Position numbers and translations under genes: made by a program
The notes under the pieces: model-generated
The model's database searches: none
The model's input: the letters and a program-made list of their open reading frames with translations, nothing else
Told to the model about the DNA's origin: nothing
NCBI GenBank assembly: GCA_030603165.1
Contig: JAUVYH010000001.1
Location: 4,837 to 68,836, forward strand
Origin: Fidelibacterota bacterium
Lineage (GTDB): Bacteria > Fidelibacterota > UBA2242
Length of the DNA: 64,000 bases
Direction: 5' to 3'
Part shown: piece after piece, positions 30,226 to 42,267 of the stretch
Layout: every line of letters begins with the position of its first letter
How positions within the stretch are numbered: position 1 is the stretch's first letter

Positions 30226-31812
30226 TGTAGATAATTTTCTATTATGCAAGTTTTTATACAATGAAAACTATAAAAAAACTGTAATCTTAAAATTAATCTT
30301 CACTATGTGTACGTACACATAGTTAGTTTACATTAAATAGAATGTAATTGTCAAGTGTTTTATTGCTGGAATTGACCACCCCCGTTTTTTAGAATTCTAG
30401 TGTAATAGCGAGTTGGTGCTTGTTAATGTAGCATGTCTTTTTGTCAGGTAAGAATATTTTCGCCGTTACGGTAGCCAAAAGCATTTTGACTATCAGACCT
30501 ATTTTATAGTAGATGAATCCTAATATCTCATGCAGTCTATACTTTTCTATAGTTTTGATGGGACTGCATAGCAACAATTGATTATGGAGCGAACTTATCT
30601 CGGTGTATATTAAATACATAACAATAGTTAAAATTGATAACATCGTTCTCAAGCCCTCAAATTTTCTTAACTGAATATCTTCAAGATGGAATTGATTCTT
30701 GATATGTCGATGATATTCTTCGATTTTCCAGCGATAACCATATCCCCGAAAGGATTCTTCTACAACATCTCTTTCTGTTTTTTTATCGGTGGACACAATA
30801 TACCAACTATATCCTTTGCCTTCTCCCTTTAAAACAACCAGCCACAATTCATTTGGGAAAGGTAATCCGGTGTACTCATTGATAAACAGGACAGGAACAG
30901 CGCCGGCATAATAAATTTCCTTCCTGATTCGTTCTTCTTTATTTTCTGCGTCTCTAATCGATATTGGAGATTTACTTTTCTACTAATCCATTTCATACTT
31001 CTGACTTTTCCCCGATATATCAAATTACGTTTTCCTAATGATCGGATGATAAAGTTTAAACGCTTTCTTAATAATGGAACAATCAATTTTGTTCTATCTC
31101 CACCTCTGTCAATAACCCAGGTAAGTTGTTTGCCGACATGCTTTATTACAGTAAAGATTCCCTCCAGTATTTCACTATTCTCACTTTGTGTCCCCTCATT
31201 AAAGCTGTACAACTTGTTATAGAGCGGTGTGATTTGTTCTCCGGCGTGGTTTATTCCTATTATATTCATGAGCCGGTAGCCTATTCCGATAGAATCGGTG
31301 CTCCCATCGTGTACTCTTGCCAGCCCTTCCATCATTCTTGAATATTTCTTCTGAATATCAGATAAATCTAATATTGCATAATCACTCTTATTAATTTTGG
31401 AGCTAACCGACTGAATATGAGACTCAATCAATTTTCTCCAAAATCCTATCTTTTGAAAGTGACGCCGAAACCTCTCAAGCGTTTTCTTTAGTCGAATGCT
31501 ATCCTGAATATGAATTGCTATCTGGTTCATTGTAACCGATTGCCCTTTTAGTATTCCTAATACTGTTTCATGTACGAATCGGCTTTCCGGCTTTGTGATA
31601 TTCACAGATAATTTTTTAAGGTAATAGTTGAATTTTGTCTGTAACTTCTGTGTGTGTAATTTTGTCATAGTAACGCCTCCTTTTTTATGATTCTTTAACA
31701 ACCATAATTTAACAAATGGAGGCGTTATTATTAAATCATTTCTTCAAATAACTACCGTATTTATCAATTAGTTACGATAACACTATTACCGATTTCCAGA
31801 GGGTGCCAATCA
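30226..31812 (-). mobile_element. IS4-family insertion sequence, copy B (inverted, decaying)
   Basis: Nucleotide similarity to copy A across the whole element, including the tgtgtacgtacaca palindrome (30308..30321) and the SD-sequestering stem. Confidence 0.75.
30389..31701 (-). pseudogene. IS4-family transposase disrupted by 1-bp deletion (two ORFs 30829..31701 and 30389..30847)
   Basis: Copy A 'aagaagaaccgcatcaggaagg' versus the reverse complement of copy B 'aagaagaacgaatcaggaagg' (around 30945). ~90% aa identity to copy A on both sides of the frameshift. Confidence 0.8.
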
Positions 31813-31908
31813 ATTTATAAACACTGCCGCTTTTTACCAATGGAATACCTTTGATGATTTTTTCCTCTGAAGTTACCCCAAAATTTAAGCGCTGTACCTT
31901 GGTTAATA

Positions 31909-32026
31909 GAGGAAATAAGGGAATAAGGGAAATAGGGGAAATATTGATGAGATTTCTAATATATCAGAAACCAGATAAAATCTACCAAATGAAATCTTAT
32001 ACCCCTTATATCCTTATATCCCTCCT
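31909..32026. repeat. Tandem GGAAATAAGG-type octamer array plus inverted GGGATATAAGG array (related to 56246..56342)
   Basis: 'ggaaataagggaataagggaaataggggaaata' (31911..31941) and 'cttataccccttatatccttatatccctcc' (31996..32026). The second is the reverse complement of the motif present at 56251..56283. Confidence 0.5.
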
Positions 32027-32269
32027 GCCTGCCCTCGGAAAGGGGAGGTCGATTGGAATATCCATGAAACAAGGCTTTTTCCAGCTCAACTTTCCTAAAT
32101 TACTATTCCACTTGTCAATGTGTTTTATCATCTTTAAATATAAAATATTGCGCTATAAGGGATTTCCAATTTCGGGGGAACTTTAGTTTTTCCTCTATTG
32201 AATCTTTCACAACATATATACAATCTCAGCAGTTTGATTCCTTGACATTTAAGCAAATAGAATGGAAAT

Positions 32270-33091
32270 TTGCTCATTATGAAAGATTTAAACTGGTATT
32301 TTCCCAAATCCATTGCCGAAGCTGTCGATTTAGTGCAGCAAGGTAAAATTCTTCCTCATGCAGGCGGAACAGGTCTGTTGCCAAGAGGTTTCACCGGAAT
32401 TGGCGGGCTCATTGATCTTTCCCGCCTGCCATTACATTATTCTAAAATTGAAAATGGTTCCGTTGAAATCGGCAGTATGAGTACTTATGCCGAAGTTGTC
32501 TCCGCATTAATGGCGATTAACCCGGAACATATTCTGGTGAAATCCTTGCGCAATTCCGCCAATACGCCCCTCAGAAACAGGATAACAATCGGCGGCAGCA
32601 TCGCCTTTTTTCCACCCTGGTCGGATCTTATGGGCGCACTGCTGGCGCTGGAAGCAAAGTTGGTGTTGGTCGGCAAGAACAGCGGTGAATTTTCAGTGAC
32701 CGATTATGTGACGAACAAAACCTTGCGGGAAAAATCGCTGATAACTGCGGTCAAATTCAACTTGTCGAATTTGCGCTCTTACCATTACCGTGACATTCGG
32801 ACTAAAAGCGACTATCCGGCTTTCAATATCACAATCCTGTTGAAACAAAGCATGAATAAAATCGAAAACAGCCGGGTTATTATTGTCGGAACTGTAAAAA
32901 AGTATAGCCGTCTCACAACTATTGAAGAATATCTGAAAAACCGGGATGTTGGAAAAATCAATATCGAAGAAATTGAAAAATTGGTTGAAGTTAAATTCGC
33001 CGGTAAAAGAATAGACGATCCGGAGTATTCAAGTTATTTAGCCGGTGTGGAGCTGGGCAGAGGAATCGAACAGCTATTGAGAGGACATTAA
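32270..33091 (+). CDS. Molybdenum hydroxylase FAD-binding subunit (CoxM/XdhB/YgfM-like)
   Basis: 'LPHAGGTGLLPRG', 'TIGGSIAFFPPWSDL'; 273 aa; stop overlaps the FeS subunit start. Confidence 0.8.
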   Translation: MLIMKDLNWYFPKSIAEAVDLVQQGKILPHAGGTGLLPRGFTGIGGLIDLSRLPLHYSKIENGSVEIGSMSTYAEVVSALMAINPEHILVKSLRNSANTPLRNRITIGGSIAFFPPWSDLMGALLALEAKLVLVGKNSGEFSVTDYVTNKTLREKSLITAVKFNLSNLRSYHYRDIRTKSDYPAFNITILLKQSMNKIENSRVIIVGTVKKYSRLTTIEEYLKNRDVGKINIEEIEKLVEVKFAGKRIDDPEYSSYLAGVELGRGIEQLLRGH

Positions 33092-33564
33092 TGGAAAGCG
33101 TATTTACTGTTAACGGGAAAAATATAAAATTTACCTTTACACCTGACGAAAGACTGCTTTTTACATTGCGAGAAAACGGATATACCGAGGTGAAAAACGG
33201 CTGCCAGGAAGGCGAATGCGGCGCCTGTTTAATTTTGCTTGATGATAAACCCGTAAATTCCTGCCAGGTGCTCACGGCATCCGCCATCGATAAAAATATC
33301 AAAACGGTGAAAGGAATTGGCGACTTGCATTCTCCGCATATCATTCAACGCGCTTTTGTTGAGACCGGAGCCGTGCAATGCGGTTTTTGCACACCGGGAA
33401 TGATTATTGCGACCTATGCTTTATTGCGGGATAATCCGAATCCTACGGAAGAAGAAATAAAAAACGCACTGGACGGCAATCTCTGCCGCTGCACCGGTTA
33501 TGTAAAGATTATCGAAGCGGTTCAGCTGGCTGCCGAACGGATGAAGAATAGAGAATTGGAGTGA
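33091..33564 (+). CDS. Molybdenum hydroxylase [2Fe-2S] small subunit
   Basis: 'GCQEGECGACLILLD..NSCQVL' and 'QCGFCTPGMI...LCRCTGY' give both 2Fe-2S cysteine clusters; 157 aa. Confidence 0.88.
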   Translation: MESVFTVNGKNIKFTFTPDERLLFTLRENGYTEVKNGCQEGECGACLILLDDKPVNSCQVLTASAIDKNIKTVKGIGDLHSPHIIQRAFVETGAVQCGFCTPGMIIATYALLRDNPNPTEEEIKNALDGNLCRCTGYVKIIEAVQLAAERMKNRELE

Positions 33565-33657
33565 TGGAGTGTTGAAACGTGGAGTATTGGAGTTTTGGAG
33601 TATTGTTTACAATAGTCTTTACATTACTCCTTTACTCCAGTACTCCACCACTCCAAA
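33556..33657. repeat. Long imperfect inverted repeat built from (GGAGT-N3) units / (ACTCC-N3) units
   Basis: Left arm 'ttggagtgatggagtgttgaaacgtggagtattggagttttggagtattg'; right arm 'cattactcctttactccagtactccaccactccaa'. The outer 16 nt pair 14/16. Overlaps the stop of the FeS gene. Confidence 0.6.
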
Positions 33658-33743
33658 CAAATTTTAAGCGGAGATAAATGTAAACCATGCCCGATTATTA
33701 TTAGTTAGATTATGATTAACTTTGCGTAAACAGGACTTGTATA

Positions 33744-35063
33744 TTGAAGAAAATGCATAAAATAATAAACGGTGACAGTCGACAGATGAATCTTGTCTCT
33801 GATAAGTCGGTACAATTGGTAGTAACATCCCCACCGTATTGGCAGCTGAAAGACTACGGAACAGAAAACCAAATAGGATATCATGAAGATTACGAAACGT
33901 ATATTAATAGCCTGAATTTGGTTTGGAAGGAATGTTACCGTGTGCTCGATAATGGTTGCCGTTTATGTATTAATATCGGAGACCAATTTGCTCGCGCTGT
34001 CTATTATGGACGTTATAAAGTTATCCCAATTCGAACTGAGATAATCAAATTTTGTGAAAGTATCGGATTTGATTATATGGGGGCTATCATTTGGCAAAAA
34101 CAGACCACCACTAACACGACAGGTGGTGCATCATTAATGGGAAGCTATCCTACGCCAAGAAACGGAATAATCTCTATTGATTATGAATTTATCTTATTGT
34201 TTAAAAAGTTAGGCTCACCACCTAAAGTAAGTAGGGAAATAAAGGAACAATCGAAACTTACAAAAGAAGAATGGAAAGAATATTTTTCAGGCCATTGGAC
34301 TTTTGGTGGAGCCAGGCAAGATGGTCATATTGCCATGTTTCCTGAAGAATTACCAAAGAGACTAATAAAAATGTTCGCTTTTAAGGGTGAGACAGTATTA
34401 GACCCTTTTATGGGGAGTGGAACAACATCTTTAGCTGCAAGAAACTTAAATAGAAATTCGATCGGCTATGAAATTAATCCCGACTTCATTGAGATAGCCA
34501 AAAAGAAACTGGGCGTTAACTATACAGATATTTCGGGAATAAAATATGAGTTCCCGAAAGATAGTTTCAATTTAGACATAGAAAGAAAACTTAATAATCT
34601 TCCTTACAGATTTGTTGATTTACAAAAGCTTGATAAAAAAATCGATCCCAAGAAAATGAGATTTGGGTCAAAAATAGATCAACATAATTTTCAAAGAGAA
34701 GAATATTACTCCGTAAAAGAAGTTCTCAGTCCTGAACTTATTAAATTAAACAATGACCTTGTGGTTCGCCTTATTGGTGTTAAACAAAAAGAATCTACAA
34801 ATGGACGAGCAATAAAGTTTATAATTGATAAAACAAAAGGGCAGAAGGTTTTTTTAAAATTTGATAATCAGAAATATGATAATGCAAACCATCTTTTATG
34901 CTATCTGTATTTAAAGAATAAAACTTTTATCAATGCTCACCTTATTAAAGAGGGCTTGGTTGAGCCGGCAACATCATTCGATTTTAAATACAAAGACAAA
35001 TTTTTTACTTTGAGCAATAATAAAGACACCATTAACCAGATGGAACAGATTATACAATGTTGA
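33744..35063 (+). CDS. Orphan beta-class DNA methyltransferase (N6A/N4C; motif IV SPPY before motif I) with C-terminal SNase/thermonuclease-like domain
   Basis: 'LVVTSPPYW' (motif IV), 'VLDPFMGSGTTSLAA' (motif I). C-terminal 'VVRLIGVKQKES...HLLCYLYLKNKTFINAHLIKEGLVE' resembles the SNase OB-fold (..RLLLVDTPE...[24 protein letters not shown]), but DTPE is replaced by KQKE. Appears AT-richer by eye. Confidence 0.75.
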   Translation: MKKMHKIINGDSRQMNLVSDKSVQLVVTSPPYWQLKDYGTENQIGYHEDYETYINSLNLVWKECYRVLDNGCRLCINIGDQFARAVYYGRYKVIPIRTEIIKFCESIGFDYMGAIIWQKQTTTNTTGGASLMGSYPTPRNGIISIDYEFILLFKKLGSPPKVSREIKEQSKLTKEEWKEYFSGHWTFGGARQDGHIAMFPEELPKRLIKMFAFKGETVLDPFMGSGTTSLAARNLNRNSIGYEINPDFIEIAKKKLGVNYTDISGIKYEFPKDSFNLDIERKLNNLPYRFVDLQKLDKKIDPKKMRFGSKIDQHNFQREEYYSVKEVLSPELIKLNNDLVVRLIGVKQKESTNGRAIKFIIDKTKGQKVFLKFDNQKYDNANHLLCYLYLKNKTFINAHLIKEGLVEPATSFDFKYKDKFFTLSNNKDTINQMEQIIQC

Positions 35064-35324
35064 TTTTTTTATTAAAATTCAGGACAAATTTATCGGTCTT
35101 CAAATTAAACCAGTAAATCAGGGGATACAACTATCTCAAATATTTAAAGAAAAAGGACTTCAAGAAAAAACACACCGAAAATTCGAAAAAGAATTTGGCG
35201 GGAAAGTCTTTTACATATTTTCATCAAAAGCAAATGGAAAAAAGGTAATTGTCAACACGGATATAATAGACGAGATCAGGAATGAGATAAAAAAACTCGA
35301 AACACTTCAAGAAGTTAAATAATT

Positions 35325-37649
35325 ATGAATAAATATATGATCATCGGTAAATCCGAAAAGAAAATTGATTCCCTGTCCCTGGCGACAGGCAGCAGCAGGT
35401 TTGTTGAGGATTTTGAAGTCAAAAACCCACTCTATCTTGCCTTTTTGTATTCGCCTTATGCACACGCTGAAATCCTGGACATCGACGATCGGAATGCTCG
35501 CAATATTACCGGTGTGGTTGATGTTTTTCATTATCAAAATGTCAAACCGGTTTTACATACAACTGCGGGGCAGGGATTTCCGGAGCCGTCACCCTATGAT
35601 ACGGTTTTGTTTGATAAAAAGGTGCGCTATGTCGGCGACAGAGTTGCCGTTGTCGCGGCTGAAAGTCTGGCAATCGCCACAGATGCCACGAAATTAATAA
35701 AAGTTGACTATAAAATTCTCGAACCCCTGTTTGACCCGGAAAAATCGATGCAGAAAGGTGCGCCGATCCTCCACGGTAAAGACCGCTATGCACCCATCCC
35801 GGTTAAATACGAGCCCGAGCATAATCTGGCGGCGGAAGTCGAAATCGGTTTTGGAAATATGAAGAACGGCGAAGTGGAAGCTGACTTTATTATTGACGAA
35901 ACATATCATGCCCATTATGGTTCTCACTGCGCTATTGAACCCCATGCAGCGCTATCGTTTTTCGATGAAATGGGACGGCTGGTAATTGTTTGTACAACGC
36001 AAGTGCCCTTTCATGTACGCCGAATCGTCTCCAGAGTTTTAGAATACCCGCTTGCGAAAATCCGGGTAATTAAGCCTCGTATCGGTGGAGGATTTGGCGG
36101 TAAACAGGAGGTTTTTCTGGAACCCGTCGTCGCTTTAGCCACTATTCGTCATAAACGACCAGCGAAAATCGTACTCTCCCGCAAAGAGGTTTTTCAATCC
36201 AGCCGCACCCGGCATCCTATCAGGATCAGGTTGCGCACTGGCGTAAAGAATGACGGTGAAATCACCTCCCTGGAAATGGACGCCCTGCTTAATTCCGGTG
36301 CCTATGGGACTCATGCACTTACAGTTCTGTCCAATAACGGCGCCAAAGTTTTACCGCTGTTTAATAAAATAAAGAATCTTCATTTTATCGGTAGGTCGGT
36401 CTATACCAATTTGCCGGTAGGCGGCGCGTATCGCGGCTATGGCGCAACTCAGGGATATTTTGCACTTAACCAGCAGCTGGATATCATCGCCCGCAAACTG
36501 GACATAGATCTTCTGGATTATATTAAGAAAAACCATATTAGAGAAGGCGAAACCTCACAGGTTTTTAAAGCTCTCGGTGAAGGCACGGAAGGCGTCACCC
36601 AGATTATCAATTCCTGTAAACTGGATGAATGTATTGACATTGGCGCTGAAGAAATCGGCTGGTATGAGAAGCGGGATAAACGCCTGAGCGACGGTGATAA
36701 GGTTCGCGGTGTCGGCGTTGCGGTTTCCATGCAGGGCTCCGGGATTCCACTGATCGACATGGGCAGCGCTTCCATGAAAATGAACGACGACGGCTCATTT
36801 AATCTGGATATAGGAGCTACTGATCTTGGAACCGGTTCCGATACTATCCTGGCTCAGATCGCGGCGGAAGTTCTGGGGATTGGTTTGGATAAAATAATTG
36901 TGCTTTCGTCCGATACGGATAGAACACCTTTTGACGTCGGCGCTTACGCTTCATCCACAACCTATATATCCGGCGCTGCCGTGAAAAAATGCGCCGAGAA
37001 AATCAAAGAACAGATTATTAGTGTAGCTGCAAAAATGCTGAACAGCGGTAAAAACGAATTGTATCTCGCAGAGGGTAAGGTCATTGATAAAAAGAAAAGT
37101 AAAGAACTTAGCCTTGCTGAAGTAGCCGCCCATTCTCTTTATACCAAAGATCAATTTCAAATCCAGGCTAATGCGTCACATGTCGCAGAACAATCACCAC
37201 CGCCTTTTATTGCTCAGTTTGCCGAAGCTGAAGTGGACAAGAAAACCGGGAAAGTTCGCATTATAAAATTTGTTTCGGCGGTTGATTGTGGGCAAGCAAT
37301 CAATCCCAAACTTGCCGAAGGGCAGATTGAAGGTGCAGCCGTCAACGGCATTTGTTACGCTCTGACCGAGCAGTACAAATTTTCCTCCAGTGGAAATTTG
37401 CTGAATAAAAGTTTCCGGGATTACAAAATCTGGACAGCGGCGGATTTGCCGGAGTTCAGGACTTTTGTTGTGGAATCCCATGAAGAGACTGGCCCCTTCG
37501 GCGCAAAATCGGTGGGTGAAATCGGTATAAACGGTCCTATGCCTGCCATTGCCAATGCAATATATGACGCAGTTGGTATCAGATTGTATAAAGCGCCATT
37601 TACCCCGGAAAAAGTCTATCGCGAAATGAAACGGACGGGAAAGATTTGA
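35325..37649 (+). CDS. Molybdenum hydroxylase large (molybdopterin-binding) subunit, xanthine-dehydrogenase family
   Basis: 774 aa; 'GGGFGGKQE' Mo-site motif, 'FGAKSVGEIGINGPMPAIANAI' C-terminal motif. Confidence 0.85.
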   Translation: MNKYMIIGKSEKKIDSLSLATGSSRFVEDFEVKNPLYLAFLYSPYAHAEILDIDDRNARNITGVVDVFHYQNVKPVLHTTAGQGFPEPSPYDTVLFDKKVRYVGDRVAVVAAESLAIATDATKLIKVDYKILEPLFDPEKSMQKGAPILHGKDRYAPIPVKYEPEHNLAAEVEIGFGNMKNGEVEADFIIDETYHAHYGSHCAIEPHAALSFFDEMGRLVIVCTTQVPFHVRRIVSRVLEYPLAKIRVIKPRIGGGFGGKQEVFLEPVVALATIRHKRPAKIVLSRKEVFQSSRTRHPIRIRLRTGVKNDGEITSLEMDALLNSGAYGTHALTVLSNNGAKVLPLFNKIKNLHFIGRSVYTNLPVGGAYRGYGATQGYFALNQQLDIIARKLDIDLLDYIKKNHIREGETSQVFKALGEGTEGVTQIINSCKLDECIDIGAEEIGWYEKRDKRLSDGDKVRGVGVAVSMQGSGIPLIDMGSASMKMNDDGSFNLDIGATDLGTGSDTILAQIAAEVLGIGLDKIIVLSSDTDRTPFDVGAYASSTTYISGAAVKKCAEKIKEQIISVAAKMLNSGKNELYLAEGKVIDKKKSKELSLAEVAAHSLYTKDQFQIQANASHVAEQSPPPFIAQFAEAEVDKKTGKVRIIKFVSAVDCGQAINPKLAEGQIEGAAVNGICYALTEQYKFSSSGNLLNKSFRDYKIWTAADLPEFRTFVVESHEETGPFGAKSVGEIGINGPMPAIANAIYDAVGIRLYKAPFTPEKVYREMKRTGKI

Positions 37650-37736: not shown

Positions 37737-39020
37737 ATGGCTGAAAAATATATTATCGGAAACGGAATCATAACCGACGGCTTTTCGTTTCTGATTGAAG
37801 ACGGCGCTATAGAAATTGAAAACGGTATAATCAAGCAAATTGGCAAAACCGATGAATTGAAAAGTAAAAACGTGGAATTCTTTAATTTGCAGGGTCGGCT
37901 GGTTCTTCCCGGTTTGCTCAATCCCCATCATCACCTCTATTCGGCTTTGGCAACTGGAATTTCTCCAATCGGTGAAACCGATAATTTTACCCAAATTCTT
38001 GAAAATCTCTGGTGGCATTTAGACAAAAGTCTTGATGAAGAATCTATCTATTATTCGGCTCTTTACGGACTTATTAAATCGGTAAAATACGGTGTGACGA
38101 CCATATTTGATCACCACGCTTCCATGAATTACATTTCCGGGAGTCTTCGGCTAATTGAAAAGGCATTCAAGGAAATTGGCGTTAAAGGATTGCTATGTTA
38201 TGAAATCTCCGATAGAATGGGCGAGAAAGCGATACCTCAGCAACTGGACGAAAATATTACTTTCCGGGAAGATCATATTGATGATAAAAACGTTCATGGT
38301 TTGCTTGGATTGCACGCCAATTTTACACTAAGTGAAGAAACGTTAGCGTTGATCAAACAACGGAAACCGGCGGACCTGCCCATTCACATTCATTGCGGCG
38401 AAGACAAGGCGGATATGCAGTATTGTGTTGATCACGGCTATGACGGACCGGTGCATCGCCTGCATGAATTTGGACTTTTATCGCCTAACTCTCTGCTTGC
38501 CCATTGCATTCATCTATCGCCCAAGGATTATGACATTATTCGTGAAATTCAGCCGATTATCATTTCCAACCCGGAATCCAACGCCAATAATAACGTTGGT
38601 GAAATGGACCTGTCTAAAATTGAAAAATACTGCCTCGGCACCGATGGCATGACGGGCAATATACTCGGCACTATGCGTTCACATTTTCTTCGGCACAATG
38701 GAAAGATTAGCCAGCCGCTGGATATTCTATTTCAATATTCCGGAAACATTGTGAAACGGTTTTTCCCTGATTCCGGTGCGCTGGAGATCGGAAAAAACGC
38801 CGACCTGGCTGTCACAGATTATATCCCCGTGACGGGGATTAATCTTGATAACCTGTTTTATCATCTTATCTTTGGGGTCGAAGGACAAAAAATGTATATG
38901 ACGATCTCCGATGGAAAAATCCTATATAAAGATGGGGAAATTCAAACTATTGGCGAAGAAGAAATTATTGCAAAAGTAAAAAAAGCGGCTCAGAAACTAC
39001 ATAAAAAATACTATGAGTGA
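37737..39020 (+). CDS. ssnA: SsnA-like amidohydrolase (chlorohydrolase/aminohydrolase superfamily)
   Basis: 'LPGLLNPHHHLYSALATG' metal-binding HxH; 427 aa; position between the xdh large subunit and the ygfK-like gene, as in E. coli ygfK-ssnA. Confidence 0.65.
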   Translation: MAEKYIIGNGIITDGFSFLIEDGAIEIENGIIKQIGKTDELKSKNVEFFNLQGRLVLPGLLNPHHHLYSALATGISPIGETDNFTQILENLWWHLDKSLDEESIYYSALYGLIKSVKYGVTTIFDHHASMNYISGSLRLIEKAFKEIGVKGLLCYEISDRMGEKAIPQQLDENITFREDHIDDKNVHGLLGLHANFTLSEETLALIKQRKPADLPIHIHCGEDKADMQYCVDHGYDGPVHRLHEFGLLSPNSLLAHCIHLSPKDYDIIREIQPIIISNPESNANNNVGEMDLSKIEKYCLGTDGMTGNILGTMRSHFLRHNGKISQPLDILFQYSGNIVKRFFPDSGALEIGKNADLAVTDYIPVTGINLDNLFYHLIFGVEGQKMYMTISDGKILYKDGEIQTIGEEEIIAKVKKAAQKLHKKYYE

Positions 39021-42000
39021 AAATTTTTCAATTATCCCGATCCGACAACTTCTTTCCCAAATATTGAAATCAGGGGCAAAAGGTTCCATTTTCGGGATTT
39101 ACCAAAGTCAATTTTTTACACCAAATAAAAAAGATGTTTATCGAACATCTATGTTTGATCAGATGCTGGAAACTCCGTTAGGCGTTGCGGCGGGTCCGCA
39201 TACCCAATTGGCGCAGAACATCATTTCCGCCTGGCTCTGCGGCGCCCGGTATATTGAATTGAAAACCGTTCAGACACTTGACGAAATAGAGGTTTCCAAA
39301 CCGTGTATTGATATTCAGGACGAGGGCTACAATTGCGAATGGTCGCAGGAACTCAAAATCGAAGAATCCTTCGATGAATATCTGAAAGCCTGGATCATCA
39401 TCCATCTTTTGCGGCACAAGTTCGGCTGGATCGGCGACATCGGTACGATTTTCAACATGAGCGTCGGCTATGATATGACGGGAATTCTGAAAGACAATGT
39501 GCAGTGGTTTTTGGCTAAAATGACGAATTGCCGCGAAGAAAAGGATGCTTTTATAGATGAAATAAAAGAACTATATCCTGCCGTAAATGACATTGAAATT
39601 ACCGACTGTATTTCAAATAACGTTACTCTCTCAACGATGCACGGCTGCCCTTCCGAGGAGATTGAAAAAATCGGGCAATATCTTATCGAAGAAAAGAAAC
39701 TGCATACATTTATCAAATTAAATCCGACGCTTCTGGGAAAAGAGAAAATTCACAAAATACTGACGGAAAAATTGGGCTACGAAACTATCGTACCGGATAT
39801 TGCTTTCGAACATGACATAAGCTACCCCGCTGCCGTAAAGGTGATTCAATCATTGCAACAATCCGCTCAAAAACAGGGCGTTTTCTTCGGTGTGAAACTG
39901 ACTAATACACTGGAAGCAATCAACCATAAAAACATTTTCAGTGACGAATCCATGTATATGAGCGGCAAAGCGCTGCATCCGATCAGCATCAACGTTGCGC
40001 GAAAATTAAAGAATACTAATAAAATCAAAGATTTGCACATATCCTTTTGCGGAGGTGTGAATGCCTTCAATGTGGCTGATGTCCTGACTTGCGGTTTATA
40101 TCCGGTGACGGTTTGCTCGGATTTATTGAAGCCCGGTGGATATGCCCGGCTGCCGCAATACCTGGAGGAAATCGAAAAAACCTTTATCAGCTATCAAGCA
40201 ACCGATTTACAGGATCTTATTGTCAAGAAAAGTAAGCAAACGGACCTTACCGCCGGAGTGCTGGCGAACTTAAATGAATACGCCGACAACGTCGTCAACG
40301 AACCGGTCTATAAATCAGTCTTTACCGATATTAAAACTCAGCGAGAATTAACCGAATTTGACTGTATTGTTGCTCCCTGTGTGAATACCTGTCCGTCGAA
40401 TCAAAATATTCCCGAATACATGTACCGGACGGCTAAAGGTGAATTTTCCAATGCCTTTGATACAATTATGCTCACTAATCCATTTCCGTCGGTTACGGGA
40501 ATGGTATGCGATCACCCCTGTCAAAGCAAATGTACCCGGATTAATTATGACAATTCGCTGCTGATTCGCGAGATTAAGCGCTTTATCACCGAGAATGCAG
40601 TAAAAATGGACAGCATTGTTCCTAAACAAAAGATTAGTAAAAAAGTCGCTATTATTGGCGCGGGACCATCCGGATTATCTTGCGCCTGGTTCCTTGCTTT
40701 AGCTGGTTTTGATGTAGAGATATTTGAGACGAAAGAATTTCCCGGAGGGATGCTGGCGGACGCTATACCCTTATTCCGGTTGTCGGAAAAAGCTCTGAGC
40801 GATGACATAAACCGTATCCGGCGTCTCGGCGTTAATATCCATACGTCAACGCGAATCGATGTATCGGCATTTAATAAAATTAAAGACAAATCCGACTTTA
40901 TATATATTGCGGTCGGCGCTCAACAGTCGATGAAAGTTTCCATCGAAGGAGACGATGTCGAACGGGGCTTGCTGGACCCCTTAAAATTTTTATCGGCAGT
41001 GCGAAGATGCGAATCCATTGAATTGGGAAAAAAGGTCATCGTTCTCGGCGGAGGAAATACCGCCATTGACGCCGCCAGAACCGCTAAGCGATTTGTTGGA
41101 AAAAACGGTTCCGTAACCATTGCTTACCGCCGAACACGCAGAGAAATGCCCGCCGATCAGGATGAAATCCGGGCGGCGCTGGATGAAGGCATCGAACTCA
41201 TCGAACTGGCTGCTCCCGCTAAAATCAATTCAGTAAACGGTAGCGTCAGGTCACTGGCTTGTTACCGGATGAAATTAGGCGGCGTCGATGAATCTGGTCG
41301 TCCCCGACCGGTGAAAATCGATGGCAGTGAGTTTGAAATCGCGACTGATACGATCATACCGGCATTCGGGCAAACTGCGGATATTGATTTTATTGATCAG
41401 GAGCTACTGGAAGTCACTGATCTGGAAACCAGGGAAATCAAACCCCAAAATATATTTATCGGCGGCGATGCTTTCCGGGGCGCTTCAACGGTAATTAAAG
41501 CCATTGCCGATGGACGTAAAACCGCCGGGACGATTATCCAAAAAGCGGGAATTGATCTTGATGGAACGGTTCTGAGATCAACCAATAAAGAGCTAACCCG
41601 GGAACAGCATCACGAAAAAAGAGCGCAAATCGTACATGGAATCAAATCGGAAGAAACACCGCTGGCGGAGCGGGATTACTTTAGCTTGGTCGATCTGACG
41701 CTGACTGAAGAAGAAGCGCAGCGGGAAGCGTCGCGTTGTCTTTTCTGTGATGAAGTCTGCGATATTTGCGTGACCGTCTGCCCCAACCGGGCAAATTATG
41801 GTTACACCGTCGAGCCCTTTGAAGTCAAGCTGCAAAAGGCTGTCAATGATAACGGCAAAATCAAAATAGTGGATGATGGAATATTTAAGATCGAGCAGCC
41901 ATACCAGGTGTTAAATATCGACGAATTTTGCAACGAGTGCGGCAATTGTGCGACCTTTTGCCCGACCAGCGGCGCGCCTTACAAAGACAAACCCAGGGTG

Positions 42001-42267
42001 TTTTTGACTGAAAAAATCTTCCGAAATGCAGAAAGCGGCTATTATCTCAAATCGGGTAAATTGCTATATAAAATGCAAAATGAGATAAACTCCCTGGAAA
42101 TAAAAGAAGATCAATACTATTTCGAATCCGAAGCCATTACCGCGACATTAAATCGGGATGATTTTTCAATTATTGATATTAAATTTAAAGATGATATTTT
42201 AAAGGAAGCGTCACTGGTAAACGCCGTGAAGATGAGTGTGATTTTTTTTGCATTAAAGGATTTGTAA
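39013..42267 (+). CDS. ygfK: YgfK-like Fe-S/FAD oxidoreductase (putative selenate-reductase-type subunit; DPD-like TIM barrel, NAD(P)/FAD-binding and 4Fe-4S domains)
   Basis: 1084 aa. N-terminal DHOD/DPD-like 'PLGVAAGPHTQLAQNI'; 'CVNTCPSNQNIPEYM'; Rossmann 'VAIIGAGPSGLSCAW'; C-terminal ferredoxin 'CNECGNCATFCP'. Confidence 0.7.
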   Translation: MSENFSIIPIRQLLSQILKSGAKGSIFGIYQSQFFTPNKKDVYRTSMFDQMLETPLGVAAGPHTQLAQNIISAWLCGARYIELKTVQTLDEIEVSKPCIDIQDEGYNCEWSQELKIEESFDEYLKAWIIIHLLRHKFGWIGDIGTIFNMSVGYDMTGILKDNVQWFLAKMTNCREEKDAFIDEIKELYPAVNDIEITDCISNNVTLSTMHGCPSEEIEKIGQYLIEEKKLHTFIKLNPTLLGKEKIHKILTEKLGYETIVPDIAFEHDISYPAAVKVIQSLQQSAQKQGVFFGVKLTNTLEAINHKNIFSDESMYMSGKALHPISINVARKLKNTNKIKDLHISFCGGVNAFNVADVLTCGLYPVTVCSDLLKPGGYARLPQYLEEIEKTFISYQATDLQDLIVKKSKQTDLTAGVLANLNEYADNVVNEPVYKSVFTDIKTQRELTEFDCIVAPCVNTCPSNQNIPEYMYRTAKGEFSNAFDTIMLTNPFPSVTGMVCDHPCQSKCTRINYDNSLLIREIKRFITENAVKMDSIVPKQKISKKVAIIGAGPSGLSCAWFLALAGFDVEIFETKEFPGGMLADAIPLFRLSEKALSDDINRIRRLGVNIHTSTRIDVSAFNKIKDKSDFIYIAVGAQQSMKVSIEGDDVERGLLDPLKFLSAVRRCESIELGKKVIVLGGGNTAIDAARTAKRFVGKNGSVTIAYRRTRREMPADQDEIRAALDEGIELIELAAPAKINSVNGSVRSLACYRMKLGGVDESGRPRPVKIDGSEFEIATDTIIPAFGQTADIDFIDQELLEVTDLETREIKPQNIFIGGDAFRGASTVIKAIADGRKTAGTIIQKAGIDLDGTVLRSTNKELTREQHHEKRAQIVHGIKSEETPLAERDYFSLVDLTLTEEEAQREASRCLFCDEVCDICVTVCPNRANYGYTVEPFEVKLQKAVNDNGKIKIVDDGIFKIEQPYQVLNIDEFCNECGNCATFCPTSGAPYKDKPRVFLTEKIFRNAESGYYLKSGKLLYKMQNEINSLEIKEDQYYFESEAITATLNRDDFSIIDIKFKDDILKEASLVNAVKMSVIFFALKDL

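What the first reader, a model, noticed from the sequence alone, without database searches (positions are those of the whole stretch)
33744..35322. Orphan DNA methyltransferase fused to a degenerate SNase-like domain, inserted between the FeS and Mo subunit genes, followed by a start-less ORF
The MTase (SPPY...DPFMGSGTT, beta class) carries a C-terminal thermonuclease-fold domain in which the catalytic DTPE is replaced by KQKE, so it probably binds nucleic acid without cleaving. A 100-codon open frame (35014..35322) with no ATG/GTG/TTG start follows; it may be the relic of a partner gene, for example a restriction endonuclease. The block looks AT-richer than the flanks and splits what is normally a contiguous xdh FeS-Mo gene pair. 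Candidates are a decayed R-M system or a new MTase-based defense or epigenetic module.
Basis: partly seen in the sequence, partly recalled or inferred. Interest (0 to 1): 0.55.

Follow-up and report, generated by a model that had tools for sequence, protein, structure and literature searches.

The report
Decayed MjaI-type restriction-modification cassette
A horizontally acquired restriction-modification gene pair of the MjaI family (probably CTAG-specific) sits between two xanthine-dehydrogenase subunit genes and has lost the front half of its restriction enzyme gene, leaving an intact stand-alone DNA methyltransferase; this is an ordinary fate for such systems.

Summary
ORF 33744..35063 is an intact beta-class N4/N6 DNA methyltransferase with a C-terminal SNase-like domain that lacks the Ca2+/catalytic residues. 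The start-less frame is the last ~95-100 codons of an MjaI-family restriction endonuclease gene (Pfam RE_MjaI; 92.7% nt identity to the 3' part of an intact 215-aa gene in metagenome contig L001). A ~486-nt deletion removed the last 3 MTase codons, the M-R spacer and RE codons 1 to ~115-120.

The MTase plus SNase-like architecture is not new. It is a very large, highly conserved family (~80% aa identity across phyla) that matches one PADLOC Type II MTase model end to end. An MjaI-family RE gene followed the MTase in every locus where downstream DNA was available.

The cassette is foreign: GC is 29-38% against 45-50% in the flanks, and dS to L001 is 0.3 against a saturated 2.8 for the flanking Mo gene. 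It replaced a small 23S_rRNA_IVP gene that the closest Neomarinimicrobiota relatives carry at this site. More distant relatives have FeS and Mo adjacent. CTAG/m4C specificity is inferred, not shown.

Verdict: new member of a known kind, low interest.

The parts
33565..33660 (+). GGAGT/ACTCC-repeat hairpin in the FeS-Mo spacer. It is host DNA that predates the cassette and is part of the earlier occupant of the site.
   Evidence: Predicted RNA fold -52 kcal/mol, z -5.5. The repeat pattern gives 4 matches against 0 expected. The stretch 33427-33698 is 95% identical to L013 and 87% to L009, where the hairpin precedes an intact 23S_rRNA_IVP gene.
33687..33698 (+). First four codons (ATG CCC GAT TAT) of a 23S_rRNA_IVP (four-helix-bundle) gene that the cassette replaced. 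The left junction shows 7-nt microhomology, CGATTAT.
   Evidence: Alignment A1. L009 and L013 continue from here into a 151-aa ORF that hits PF05635 (E 9.5e-22). Homology between the window and the L001/L028 cassettes begins at 33692.
33692..35322 (+). The horizontally acquired R-M cassette as a whole: promoter-like motif, MTase gene and endonuclease relic.
   Evidence: The MTase block is 93.5% (L001) and 93.8% (L028) nt identical and the endonuclease relic is 92.7% identical to L001, while flanking xdh genes are 69-77% (L001). dS is 0.30-0.35 in the cassette against 2.8 in the Mo gene. GC is 0.29-0.38. No terminal repeats or target duplication were found.
33717..33724 (+). TAACTTTG, a conserved promoter-like motif 20 nt upstream of the MTase start. 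It matches the Bacteroidota-type -7 consensus TAnnTTTG (consensus from my own knowledge; function inferred).
   Evidence: TAACTTTGC is invariant in the upstream regions of the cassettes in the window, L001, L002 and L006, although the surrounding sequence diverges.
33744..34523 (+). MTase catalytic core (aa 1-260): beta-class N4/N6 DNA methyltransferase with SPPY at aa 29-32 and DPFMGSGTT at aa 220-228.
   Evidence: Pfam PF01555 E 8e-45. 2ZIE E 1e-53. 34% identity to the characterised CTAG m4C methylase M.MthZI of pFZ1. dN/dS 0.03 against L001. No private substitution at any column that is invariant in the 17 other sequences.
34596..35021 (+). C-terminal extension (aa ~285-426): the conserved LPYRF..DKKIDPKK..FGSKID motif followed by a catalytically degenerate SNase-like (OB-fold) domain.
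   Evidence: Pfam SNase 23-25.8 bits against a cut-off of 21. NCBIfam NucI E 2e-6. A profile of 32 diverse homologues hits thermonuclease chains in the PDB at E 8e-6. hhalign probability 78%. Foldseek hits SNase at E 7e-6 with TM 0.55-0.65 (the model is of modest quality). The domain is conserved in all 18 family members, none of which has the Asp40/Thr41 equivalents.
35024..35036 (+). Deletion junction. About 486 nt present in L001 (4699-5184) are missing here: the last 3 MTase codons, the M-R spacer and endonuclease codons 1 to ~115-120.
   Evidence: blastn break points are 35023 to L001:4698 and 35037 to L001:5185. Alignment A2. tblastn of the L001 endonuclease matches only its residues 116-215.
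35024..35063 (+). New 13-codon tail of the MTase ORF (DTINQMEQIIQC and stop), created by reading endonuclease DNA out of frame.
   Evidence: Family alignment A3: the window's tail is unrelated to the others, and the family's C-terminal tails vary in length and sequence anyway. Junction.
35037..35322 (+). Pseudogene relic: the last ~95 codons of an MjaI-family Type II restriction endonuclease. It has no start codon and lacks the N-terminal ~115-120 codons.
   Evidence: Pfam RE_MjaI 29.8 bits (cut-off 22.7), profile positions 116-160 of 164. 92.7% nt and 90% aa identity to L001 endonuclease residues 116-215. No ORF with a start codon in this frame. dN/dS 0.08 and no internal stop, so the deletion is recent relative to the cassette's divergence.
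33091..33564 (+). Context: [2Fe-2S] subunit gene of the xanthine-dehydrogenase-family cluster (left flank).
   Evidence: Pfam Fer2_2 and Fer2. 92-94% aa identity to the Neomarinimicrobiota MAGs L009 and L013.
35325..37649 (+). Context: molybdopterin subunit gene (right flank). Its ATG lies 2 nt after the relic's TAA, as in L001.
   Evidence: Pfam Ald_Xan_dh_C, MoCoBD_1 and MoCoBD_2. The junction TAATTATG is identical in the window and L001.

Best explanation
The block 33692-35322 is a two-gene Type II restriction-modification cassette of the MjaI/MthZI kind. It consists of a beta-class methyltransferase followed on the same strand by an MjaI-family endonuclease.

The cassette entered a Candidatus Neomarinimicrobiota genome by horizontal transfer. 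It landed in the spacer between the FeS and Mo subunit genes of an xdh-type cluster and replaced a small 23S_rRNA_IVP gene that previously occupied that spacer. The junctions show only short microhomologies, which indicates illegitimate or homology-facilitated recombination. There is no transposase or integrase.

Later, a ~486-nt deletion removed the 5' half of the endonuclease gene together with the last three MTase codons. Losing the endonuclease first is the only order in which such an addictive gene pair can be lost without killing the host. What remains is an intact, apparently expressible solitary methyltransferase.

By inference from the MjaI-family partner and from the SPPY motif, the MTase most likely makes N4-methylcytosine in CTAG. 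Its C-terminal SNase-like domain is a conserved, non-catalytic part of this MTase family. It most likely serves as an extra nucleic-acid-binding module, not as a nuclease.

Shown: the gene identities, the deletion, the foreign origin, the site history and the loss of catalytic residues. Inferred: the CTAG/m4C specificity, present-day MTase activity, the role of the SNase-like domain and the recombination mechanism.
For: MTase identity and integrity:
- Pfam, 2ZIE and PADLOC matches. The PADLOC MTase_II model PDLC03259 matches aa 4-421 to model positions 3-420 of 423 at E 3.5e-170.
- No private substitution at any family-invariant column.
- dN/dS 0.06.

Relic identity:
- RE_MjaI hit above the curated cut-off.
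- 90% aa identity to residues 116-215 of the intact L001 endonuclease.

Intact version at the same site: L001 has FAD - FeS - MTase (96% identity) - 215-aa RE_MjaI - Mo. L028 has FAD - FeS - MTase and then the contig ends.

MTase and MjaI-family RE linked in unrelated contexts: L002-L008 and L029. The experimentally characterised CTAG system MthZI on pFZ1 is also a PF01555 methylase next to an MjaI-family endonuclease.

Foreign origin:
- Low GC.
- Cassette 93-94% nt identical between hosts whose flanks are 69-77% (L001) or 90% (L028) identical.
- dS 0.30 in the cassette against 2.8 in the Mo gene.

Site history:
- 13 loci have FeS followed by Mo with a gap of 0-118 nt.
- The closest relatives, L009 and L013, carry a PF05635 gene there.
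- The window keeps that gene's upstream hairpin and first four codons.
- L001 and L028 keep its codons 1-15 and 1-17 respectively.

SNase-like domain without Asp21/Asp40/Thr41/Arg87 equivalents, family-wide.

Recurrent endonuclease loss in the family: L029 is truncated after about aa 126 and L008 is split by an IS.

Insertion of R-M systems into operon-like clusters, and substitution of genomic regions by them, are described behaviours (PMC2993543).
Against: - Specificity is not shown. The MTase core is only 34% identical to M.MthZI and the L001 endonuclease only 28% identical to R.MthZI, so recognition could differ from CTAG.
- CTAG depletion in the window (O/E 0.26) is matched in relatives that lack the cassette (pooled O/E 0.39), so it says nothing specific.
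- Selection on the MTase after the endonuclease was lost cannot be measured, because the deletion looks recent. The relic still has dN/dS 0.08 and no stop codon.
- How the same cassette came to occupy the same spacer in three lineages with an identical right junction, but two different left junctions, is not resolved.
- Both AlphaFold models were poor (pLDDT 43 and 40), so the fold evidence for the SNase-like domain rests mainly on sequence profiles.
- Whether the deletion is fixed in the population, or is an assembly or strain variant, cannot be checked.
Confidence: 0.85

Rival explanations
1. The solitary methyltransferase is now kept by selection for a role of its own. One possibility is immunity ('molecular vaccination') against re-invasion by the same widely circulating R-M cassette. 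Another is epigenetic regulation, as proposed for orphan CTAG methylases of haloarchaea. On this view it is not merely a recently orphaned gene awaiting decay.
For: The ORF is intact with no substitution at family-invariant positions and a conserved promoter-like motif. The cassette family is extremely widespread and mobile, so re-exposure is plausible. Vaccination by solitary methylases and orphan CTAG methylases are both documented (PMC2993543; PMC5867850).
Against: The deletion appears recent, because the relic is still an open frame with dN/dS 0.08. Intactness therefore needs no selection to explain it. The closest relatives, L009 and L013, lack the gene altogether, so it is not a conserved lineage-wide orphan. 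This rival is compatible with the main explanation and concerns only the gene's present role.
Confidence: 0.25
2. The MTase-SNase fusion is a single-polypeptide modification-plus-nuclease enzyme, or a new MTase-based defence module in which the SNase-like domain cleaves nucleic acid.
For: Only the presence of a nuclease-family domain on a methyltransferase.
Against: The equivalents of the Ca2+ ligands Asp21, Asp40 and Thr41 and of Arg87 are absent in all 18 close family members and in 31 diverse homologues of the domain. The columns at the DTPE position are not even conserved. In intact cassettes a separate PD-(D/E)XK-type MjaI-family endonuclease supplies cleavage. The whole protein matches an existing Type II MTase model end to end.
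Confidence: 0.03
3. The endonuclease relic is still expressed, either as a C-terminal extension of the MTase through a +1 frameshift in the 35014-35063 overlap or from a non-canonical start codon, and it has a residual function.
For: The relic frame is open for about 100 codons and overlaps the MTase 3' end. It retains the 'VDFFIKIQDKFIGLQIKP' segment, which contains the likely catalytic core of the endonuclease.
Against: The arrangement was created by a deletion, not conserved: no other family member examined has it. I saw no slippery motif by eye. The N-terminal ~115-120 residues of a 215-residue enzyme are missing. The open frame is explained by the recency of the deletion.
Confidence: 0.03
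4. The MTase is a native, vertically inherited component of the xdh-type cluster in this clade.
For: The same gene sits between FeS and Mo in three contigs (window, L001, L028).
Against: 13 loci have FeS and Mo adjacent, and the two closest relatives have a different gene there. Cassette dS is about one tenth of flank dS. GC is 10-15 points lower. The same cassette occurs in unrelated contexts in other phyla.
Confidence: 0.02

Closest known systems
MthZI R-M system of Methanothermobacter plasmid pFZ1 (CTAG; M.MthZI makes m4C) and its relative MjaI of Methanocaldococcus jannaschii
   Same: A beta-class PF01555 methyltransferase with SPPY, paired with a PF09568 MjaI-family endonuclease of about 200 aa. 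The MTase cores align over aa 1-256 at 34% identity. The endonucleases align at 28%. CTAG/m4C for M.MthZI and M.MjaI comes from PMC5867850 and PMC11033074.
   Different: In pFZ1 the genes are convergent, whereas here and in all bacterial relatives they are tandem, M then R. M.MthZI (355 aa) has no SNase hit, and the characterised CTAG methylases are 303-364 aa. In the window the endonuclease is a start-less 3' fragment. Identity is low enough that the same specificity is not guaranteed.
The bacterial MTase family represented by PADLOC model MTase_II PDLC03259. Its members are annotated 'DNA methyltransferase' or 'thermonuclease family protein' in Lentimicrobium, Anaerophaga thermohalophila, Psychroflexus, Saprospiraceae, Calditrichia and Lentisphaeria.
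   Same: Full-length match, aa 4-421 to model positions 3-420 of 423, E 3.5e-170. 78-96% aa identity to more than 100 database proteins with the same PF01555 + PF00565 architecture. An MjaI-family endonuclease follows in every locus examined that had downstream DNA.
   Different: Only the C-terminal tail differs: the last 3 residues are replaced by 13 residues read from endonuclease DNA. The partner gene has also been lost.
TTHA0409 of Thermus thermophilus HB8 (PDB 2ZIE/2ZIF/2ZIG), a putative DNA modification methylase
   Same: It is the closest solved structure for the catalytic core: E 1e-53 over aa 4-257, and the top Foldseek hit.
   Different: The 297-aa protein has no C-terminal SNase-like domain. 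The depositors' name gives no specificity.
Staphylococcal nuclease (thermonuclease) and its catalytically inactive SNase-like relatives
   Same: Sequence-profile and fold-level similarity across the beta-barrel and helices, from 'vrLlGv' to 'NahLikrGla'.
   Different: The Ca2+ ligands and Arg87 are missing. The DTPE position reads KQKE here and is variable in the family. The domain carries its own conserved N-terminal motif, LPY.F.D...K.DPK..FGSKI. Nucleic-acid binding without cleavage is an inference.
Orphan CTAG methyltransferase HVO_0794 of Haloferax volcanii, and solitary methylases such as Dcm that derive from or mimic R-M systems
   Same: A Type II beta-class MTase without a functional cognate endonuclease (PMC5867850; PMC2993543).
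   Different: Those orphans are conserved across their lineages. This one is a recent orphan: its endonuclease relic is still recognisable, and the closest relatives lack the gene.

Membership tests
Beta-class N4-cytosine/N6-adenine DNA methyltransferases (Pfam PF01555 N6_N4_Mtase) | Profile match above the curated threshold across the whole domain | tested here: met
   153.9 bits against a cut-off of 26.7, profile positions 1-221 of 221. 2ZIE E 1e-53.
Beta-class N4-cytosine/N6-adenine DNA methyltransferases (Pfam PF01555 N6_N4_Mtase) | The catalytic motif IV (S/D)PP(Y/F) lies N-terminal to the AdoMet motif I FxGxG (beta permutation) | tested here: met
   SPPY at aa 29-32 and DPFMGSGTT at aa 220-228. 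Both are invariant in alignment A3.
Beta-class N4-cytosine/N6-adenine DNA methyltransferases (Pfam PF01555 N6_N4_Mtase) | DNA methyltransferase activity | not testable with these tools
   Only integrity can be assessed: the ORF is intact and has no private change at invariant columns.
CTAG-specific m4C methylases (M.MthZI / M.MjaI / M.BfaI group) | Genetic linkage to an MjaI-family (PF09568) endonuclease | tested here: met
   A relic is present in the window. Intact or disrupted MjaI-family endonuclease genes follow the MTase in L001-L008 and L029. pFZ1 has the same pairing.
CTAG-specific m4C methylases (M.MthZI / M.MjaI / M.BfaI group) | Close sequence similarity, including the target-recognition region, to a characterised CTAG methylase | tested here: inconclusive
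   34% identity to M.MthZI over the core. That establishes homology but is too distant to transfer specificity with confidence.
CTAG-specific m4C methylases (M.MthZI / M.MjaI / M.BfaI group) | m4C at CTAG in genomic DNA | not testable with these tools
   No methylome data. CTAG depletion (O/E 0.26) is also seen in relatives without the cassette.
MjaI-family restriction endonucleases (Pfam PF09568) | Profile match above the curated threshold | tested here: met
   29.8 bits against a cut-off of 22.7, but only profile positions 116-160 of 164.
MjaI-family restriction endonucleases (Pfam PF09568) | A complete, translatable gene of about 200-215 codons with a start codon | tested here: not met
   Only residues 116-215 remain and there is no ATG/GTG/TTG in frame. 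It is a pseudogene fragment, not a member enzyme.
Complete Type II R-M system | Both a functional MTase gene and a functional REase gene | tested here: not met
   The REase is truncated by a ~486-nt deletion. No second copy exists in the 64-kb window. The rest of the genome was not available.
Staphylococcal-nuclease (SNase, PF00565) superfamily | SNase-like fold or sequence homology | tested here: met
   Pfam 23-25.8 bits against a cut-off of 21. The profile hits PDB thermonuclease at E 8e-6. hhalign 78%. Foldseek E 7e-6, TM 0.55-0.65, on a model with pLDDT 63-82 in this region.
Staphylococcal-nuclease (SNase, PF00565) superfamily | The catalytic and Ca2+-binding residues of active thermonucleases: Asp21, Asp40, Thr41, Glu43, Arg35 and Arg87 | tested here: not met
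   Only the Arg35 equivalent is conserved. Asp40-Thr41-Pro42-Glu43 aligns with K-Q-K-E here and with variable residues in relatives. The Arg87 position is H or N. It is not an active thermonuclease.
Lineage-conserved orphan methyltransferases (Dam, CcrM, haloarchaeal CTAG type) | Conserved without an endonuclease partner across related genomes | tested here: not met
   The closest relatives, L009 and L013, lack the gene, and L001 has it with an intact endonuclease.

The most novel reading that the evidence does not exclude
The catalytically dead SNase-like domain may be a functional innovation of an unusually successful R-M family that is about 80% identical across several phyla. It could be a second DNA-binding module that autoregulates the cassette, which has no conserved controller gene, or one that clamps the methylase on DNA. 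The orphaned copy in this genome may be retained as immunity against re-invasion by the same cassette at a recombination hotspot formed by a 23S_rRNA_IVP gene with GGAGT-repeat hairpins.
Probability: 0.12. Interest if true: 0.4.

Novelty: new member of a known kind. Interest (0 to 1): 0.17.

Why it matters
The significance is limited. The locus is a clean, datable snapshot of the usual life cycle of a Type II R-M system in an uncultured marine phylum (Neomarinimicrobiota): horizontal arrival, insertion into an operon-like cluster, loss of the endonuclease first, and a solitary methylase left behind.

In practical terms:
- It tells annotators not to call the start-less frame a gene.
- It predicts a methylation motif, probably Cm4TAG, to look for in long-read data.
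- It flags that the xdh Mo-subunit gene now lies downstream of foreign DNA.

Two side observations might repay a specialist's attention. One is the uncharacterised, conserved, non-catalytic SNase-like domain of this very widespread methylase family. The other is the repeated use of the FeS-Mo spacer, with its IVP gene, as a landing site.

Tried and rejected
- **AlphaFold2, full protein (18-sequence alignment) and C-terminal domain (11 sequences).** Both models were poor (mean pLDDT 43 and 40), probably because the homologues are too similar. The Foldseek hits are treated as supporting evidence only.
- **Profile of close family C-termini against the PDB.** No SNase hit. SNase appeared only after the profile was rebuilt from diverse 50%-cluster representatives.
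- **CTAG avoidance as evidence for specificity.** O/E is 0.26 in the window but 0.39 pooled over relatives without the cassette, so it does not discriminate.
- **Recombination tract in the flanks.** There is no gradient of L001-like identity at the start of the Mo gene or the end of the FeS gene. Simple homologous replacement with long flanks is therefore not supported.
- **Terminal inverted repeats or target-site duplication around the cassette.** None found.
- **Rfam scan of 33300-35500.** Only sub-threshold miRNA-hairpin matches to the GGAGT hairpin, which are spurious.
- **Conserved small gene (controller) between M and R in intact cassettes.** The spacers are 115-326 nt with non-homologous small ORFs and no Pfam HTH.
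- **Exact-sequence look-up of the window's MTase.** Not on record.
- **Literature search for 'SNase' together with 'N6_N4_Mtase'.** No papers.
- **tblastn against plasmids.** No full-length (MTase + SNase) match. The best hits cover only the core at 39% identity or less.
- **Terminator scan.** None found between the cassette and the Mo gene.
Full report
**1. What is in the sequence**

The ORF list shows a 439-codon ORF on the + strand at 33744..35063. It lies between a 157-aa [2Fe-2S] subunit gene (33091..33564) and a 774-aa molybdopterin subunit gene (35325..37649), in a cluster that also encodes the FAD subunit (32270..33091) and an amidohydrolase.

The ORF hits Pfam N6_N4_Mtase (E 8e-45) and, at aa 354-421, SNase (23 bits, cut-off 21). 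SPPY precedes DPFMGSGTT, which is the beta-class order. The catalytic core aligns over aa 4-257 with the solved methylase TTHA0409 (2ZIE, E 1e-53).

Frame 35014..35322 is open, ends in TAA two bases before the Mo gene's ATG, and contains no ATG, GTG or TTG. GC falls to 0.29-0.38 across the block, against 0.45-0.50 in the flanking genes.

**2. The start-less frame is the 3' part of an MjaI-family restriction endonuclease gene**

Its translation hits Pfam RE_MjaI at 29.8 bits (cut-off 22.7), but only over profile positions 116-160 of 164.

A metagenome contig, L001, encodes an MTase 96% identical to the window's. It has the order FAD - FeS - MTase - 48-aa ORF - 215-aa RE_MjaI protein - Mo subunit. 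The L001 endonuclease hits RE_MjaI end to end (E 6e-50).

tblastn of that endonuclease against the window matches only its residues 116-215, at 90% identity, at 35020..35319. At the DNA level, window 33692-35023 aligns with L001 3367-4698 and window 35037 onward aligns with L001 5185 onward.

About 486 nt are therefore missing from the window. They comprise the last three MTase codons, the M-R spacer and endonuclease codons 1 to ~115-120. As a by-product, the MTase ORF now ends with 13 codons read out of frame from endonuclease DNA.

**3. The MTase plus SNase-like architecture is a family trait**

The homologue search saturated at 8000 hits. The best 120 are 77-96% identical full-length proteins of 405-452 aa, most with precomputed PF01555 + PF00565. 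They come from Lentimicrobium, Anaerophaga, Psychroflexus, Saprospiraceae, Calditrichia, Lentisphaeria and many metagenomes.

One PADLOC Type II MTase model (PDLC03259, 423 positions) matches aa 4-421 at E 3.5e-170, so the whole architecture is already catalogued.

In an 18-sequence alignment the C-terminal domain is conserved throughout. The stretch equivalent to SNase 'RLLLVDTPE' reads RLIG[VI]K[EQK]K in all members. A search with the domain alone against 1.84 billion cluster representatives found 618 relatives.

A 32-sequence alignment of diverse relatives shows no conservation at the positions of Asp21, Asp40, Thr41, Glu43 or Arg87. That more diverse profile hits thermonuclease chains in the PDB at E 8e-6.

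The two AlphaFold models were poor overall (pLDDT 43 and 40).

This is true of the entire family and is not a sign of decay at this locus.

**4. Linkage and probable specificity**

An MjaI-family endonuclease gene follows the MTase on the same strand in all other contexts examined: L002-L005, L006-L008 and L029.

The experimentally characterised CTAG system MthZI on plasmid pFZ1 also pairs a PF01555 methylase (355 aa, no SNase hit) with an MjaI-family endonuclease, in convergent orientation. M.MthZI and M.MjaI are reported as beta-class m4C CTAG methylases of 303-364 aa (PMC5867850; PMC11033074).

Identity to the MthZI proteins is only 34% for the MTase core and 28% for the endonuclease. I therefore regard Cm4TAG as the most likely product, at roughly 0.6, but not as shown.

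CTAG is strongly under-represented in the window (17 observed, 65 expected). It is also under-represented in relatives without the cassette (pooled O/E 0.39), so this is not discriminating.

**5. Origin and history of the site**

Relatives of the Mo subunit identify the host as Candidatus Neomarinimicrobiota. L009 and L013 are 92-95% identical to the window in protein.

The state of the FeS-Mo spacer differs between relatives:
- In 13 loci the FeS gene is followed by the Mo gene with a gap of 0-118 nt.
- In the two closest relatives the spacer is 634-667 nt. It holds a 151-aa gene that hits Pfam 23S_rRNA_IVP (E 9.5e-22), preceded by a GGAGT/ACTCC-repeat hairpin and followed by more ACTCC repeats.
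- The window retains that hairpin (33565-33660; -52 kcal/mol, z -5.5) and the first four codons of the IVP gene (33687-33698). The stretch 33427-33698 is 95% identical to L013. The window then switches into cassette DNA at a 7-nt microhomology, CGATTAT.
- L001 and a third contig, L028 (flanks 90% identical to the window, MTase 93.8%), keep IVP codons 1-15 and 1-17 respectively before the cassette.

Between the window and L001, the MTase block is 93.5% identical and the endonuclease relic 92.7% identical in DNA, against 69-77% for the xdh genes. dS is 0.30-0.35 in the cassette against a saturated 2.8 in the Mo gene.

The cassette is therefore much younger than the split of its hosts. It has moved horizontally among these lineages, each time ending up in the same spacer at the expense of the IVP gene.

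I found no transposase, integrase, terminal repeats or target duplication, and no gradient of donor-like identity in the flanks. Short-homology or illegitimate recombination is my inference for the mechanism.

Insertion of R-M units into operon-like clusters, and substitution of resident DNA by them, are described behaviours of R-M systems (PMC2993543).

**6. State of the surviving methylase**

The window's MTase has no private substitution at any column that is invariant in the other 17 sequences, whereas those sequences have 0-7 each. dN/dS against L001 is 0.06 overall, 0.03 for the core and 0.115 for the C-terminal domain.

A TAACTTTG motif 20 nt upstream of the start codon is conserved in all cassettes compared. 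No terminator-like site was found between the cassette and the Mo gene.

The relic has dN/dS 0.08 and no stop codon. Most of its divergence therefore accumulated while it was still a working gene, and the deletion is recent. For that reason the MTase's intactness does not prove selection after orphaning.

Endonuclease loss recurs in the family. L029's endonuclease is truncated after about residue 126 and L008's is split by an IS. This fits the known asymmetry of these addictive gene pairs: the endonuclease can be lost safely, but the methylase cannot be lost while the endonuclease is active.

**7. Verdict**

This is a decayed Type II R-M cassette of a known, very common family, sitting in a foreign-DNA landing site inside an xdh-type cluster. 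The suggestion of a new MTase-based module does not.

Novelty: new member of a known kind. Interest: low (0.17).

Two residual points might interest a specialist. One is the unknown role of the conserved, non-catalytic SNase-like domain in this highly successful methylase family. The other is the repeated targeting of the IVP-occupied spacer.

Noticed in passing
window 30389-31701 (- strand): An IS-like transposase is split into two overlapping ORFs of 290 aa and 152 aa. Only the second hits Pfam DDE_Tnp_1. It lies about 570 nt upstream of the xdh FAD-subunit gene and is probably a frameshifted or decaying IS.
   Followed up: no
window 33565-33698; L009 5336-6000; L013 1288-1919: A GGAGT/ACTCC-repeat hairpin is followed, in the closest relatives, by an intact 151-aa 23S_rRNA_IVP (PF05635) gene and then by more ACTCC repeats. 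The unit looks like a small inserted element in the FeS-Mo spacer. The R-M cassette displaced it in three lineages.
   Followed up: partly
whole window: GGCC is depleted even more than CTAG: 38 observed against 180 expected, O/E 0.21. CGCG has O/E 0.50. This hints at past or present GGCC-specific restriction in this lineage.
   Followed up: no
proteins P0001-P0120; alignment A3: The MTase family is extraordinarily conserved: about 80% aa identity between members annotated from different phyla, and residues 77-134 are invariant in 18 sequences. This implies very recent and wide horizontal spread or unusually strong constraint.
   Followed up: partly
L029 6565-6945; L008 6555-7034 and 10801-10983: Two independent disruptions of the partner endonuclease occur in other cassettes: truncation after about residue 126 in L029, and interruption by IS elements in L008. 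The MTase stays intact in both.
   Followed up: partly
L001 4709-4822; L002 6285-6436; L006 6243-6554; L029 6240-6564: The spacer between the MTase and endonuclease genes is variable (115-326 nt). It carries unrelated small ORFs of 48-105 aa with no clear family, so there is no conserved controller protein.
   Followed up: partly
window 37737-42267: Downstream of the Mo subunit lie an amidohydrolase (427 aa) and a 1084-aa ORF. From memory, the cluster resembles the E. coli ygfK-ssnA-ygfM-xdhD purine-catabolism neighbourhood. Only the amidohydrolase was checked against Pfam.
   Followed up: no
window 31867-32186: About 320 nt upstream of the FAD gene have no counterpart in the otherwise 90%-identical contig L028. 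The blastn alignment jumps from window 31866 to 32187 while staying contiguous in L028. The stretch contains a 111-aa ORF of unknown nature.
   Followed up: no
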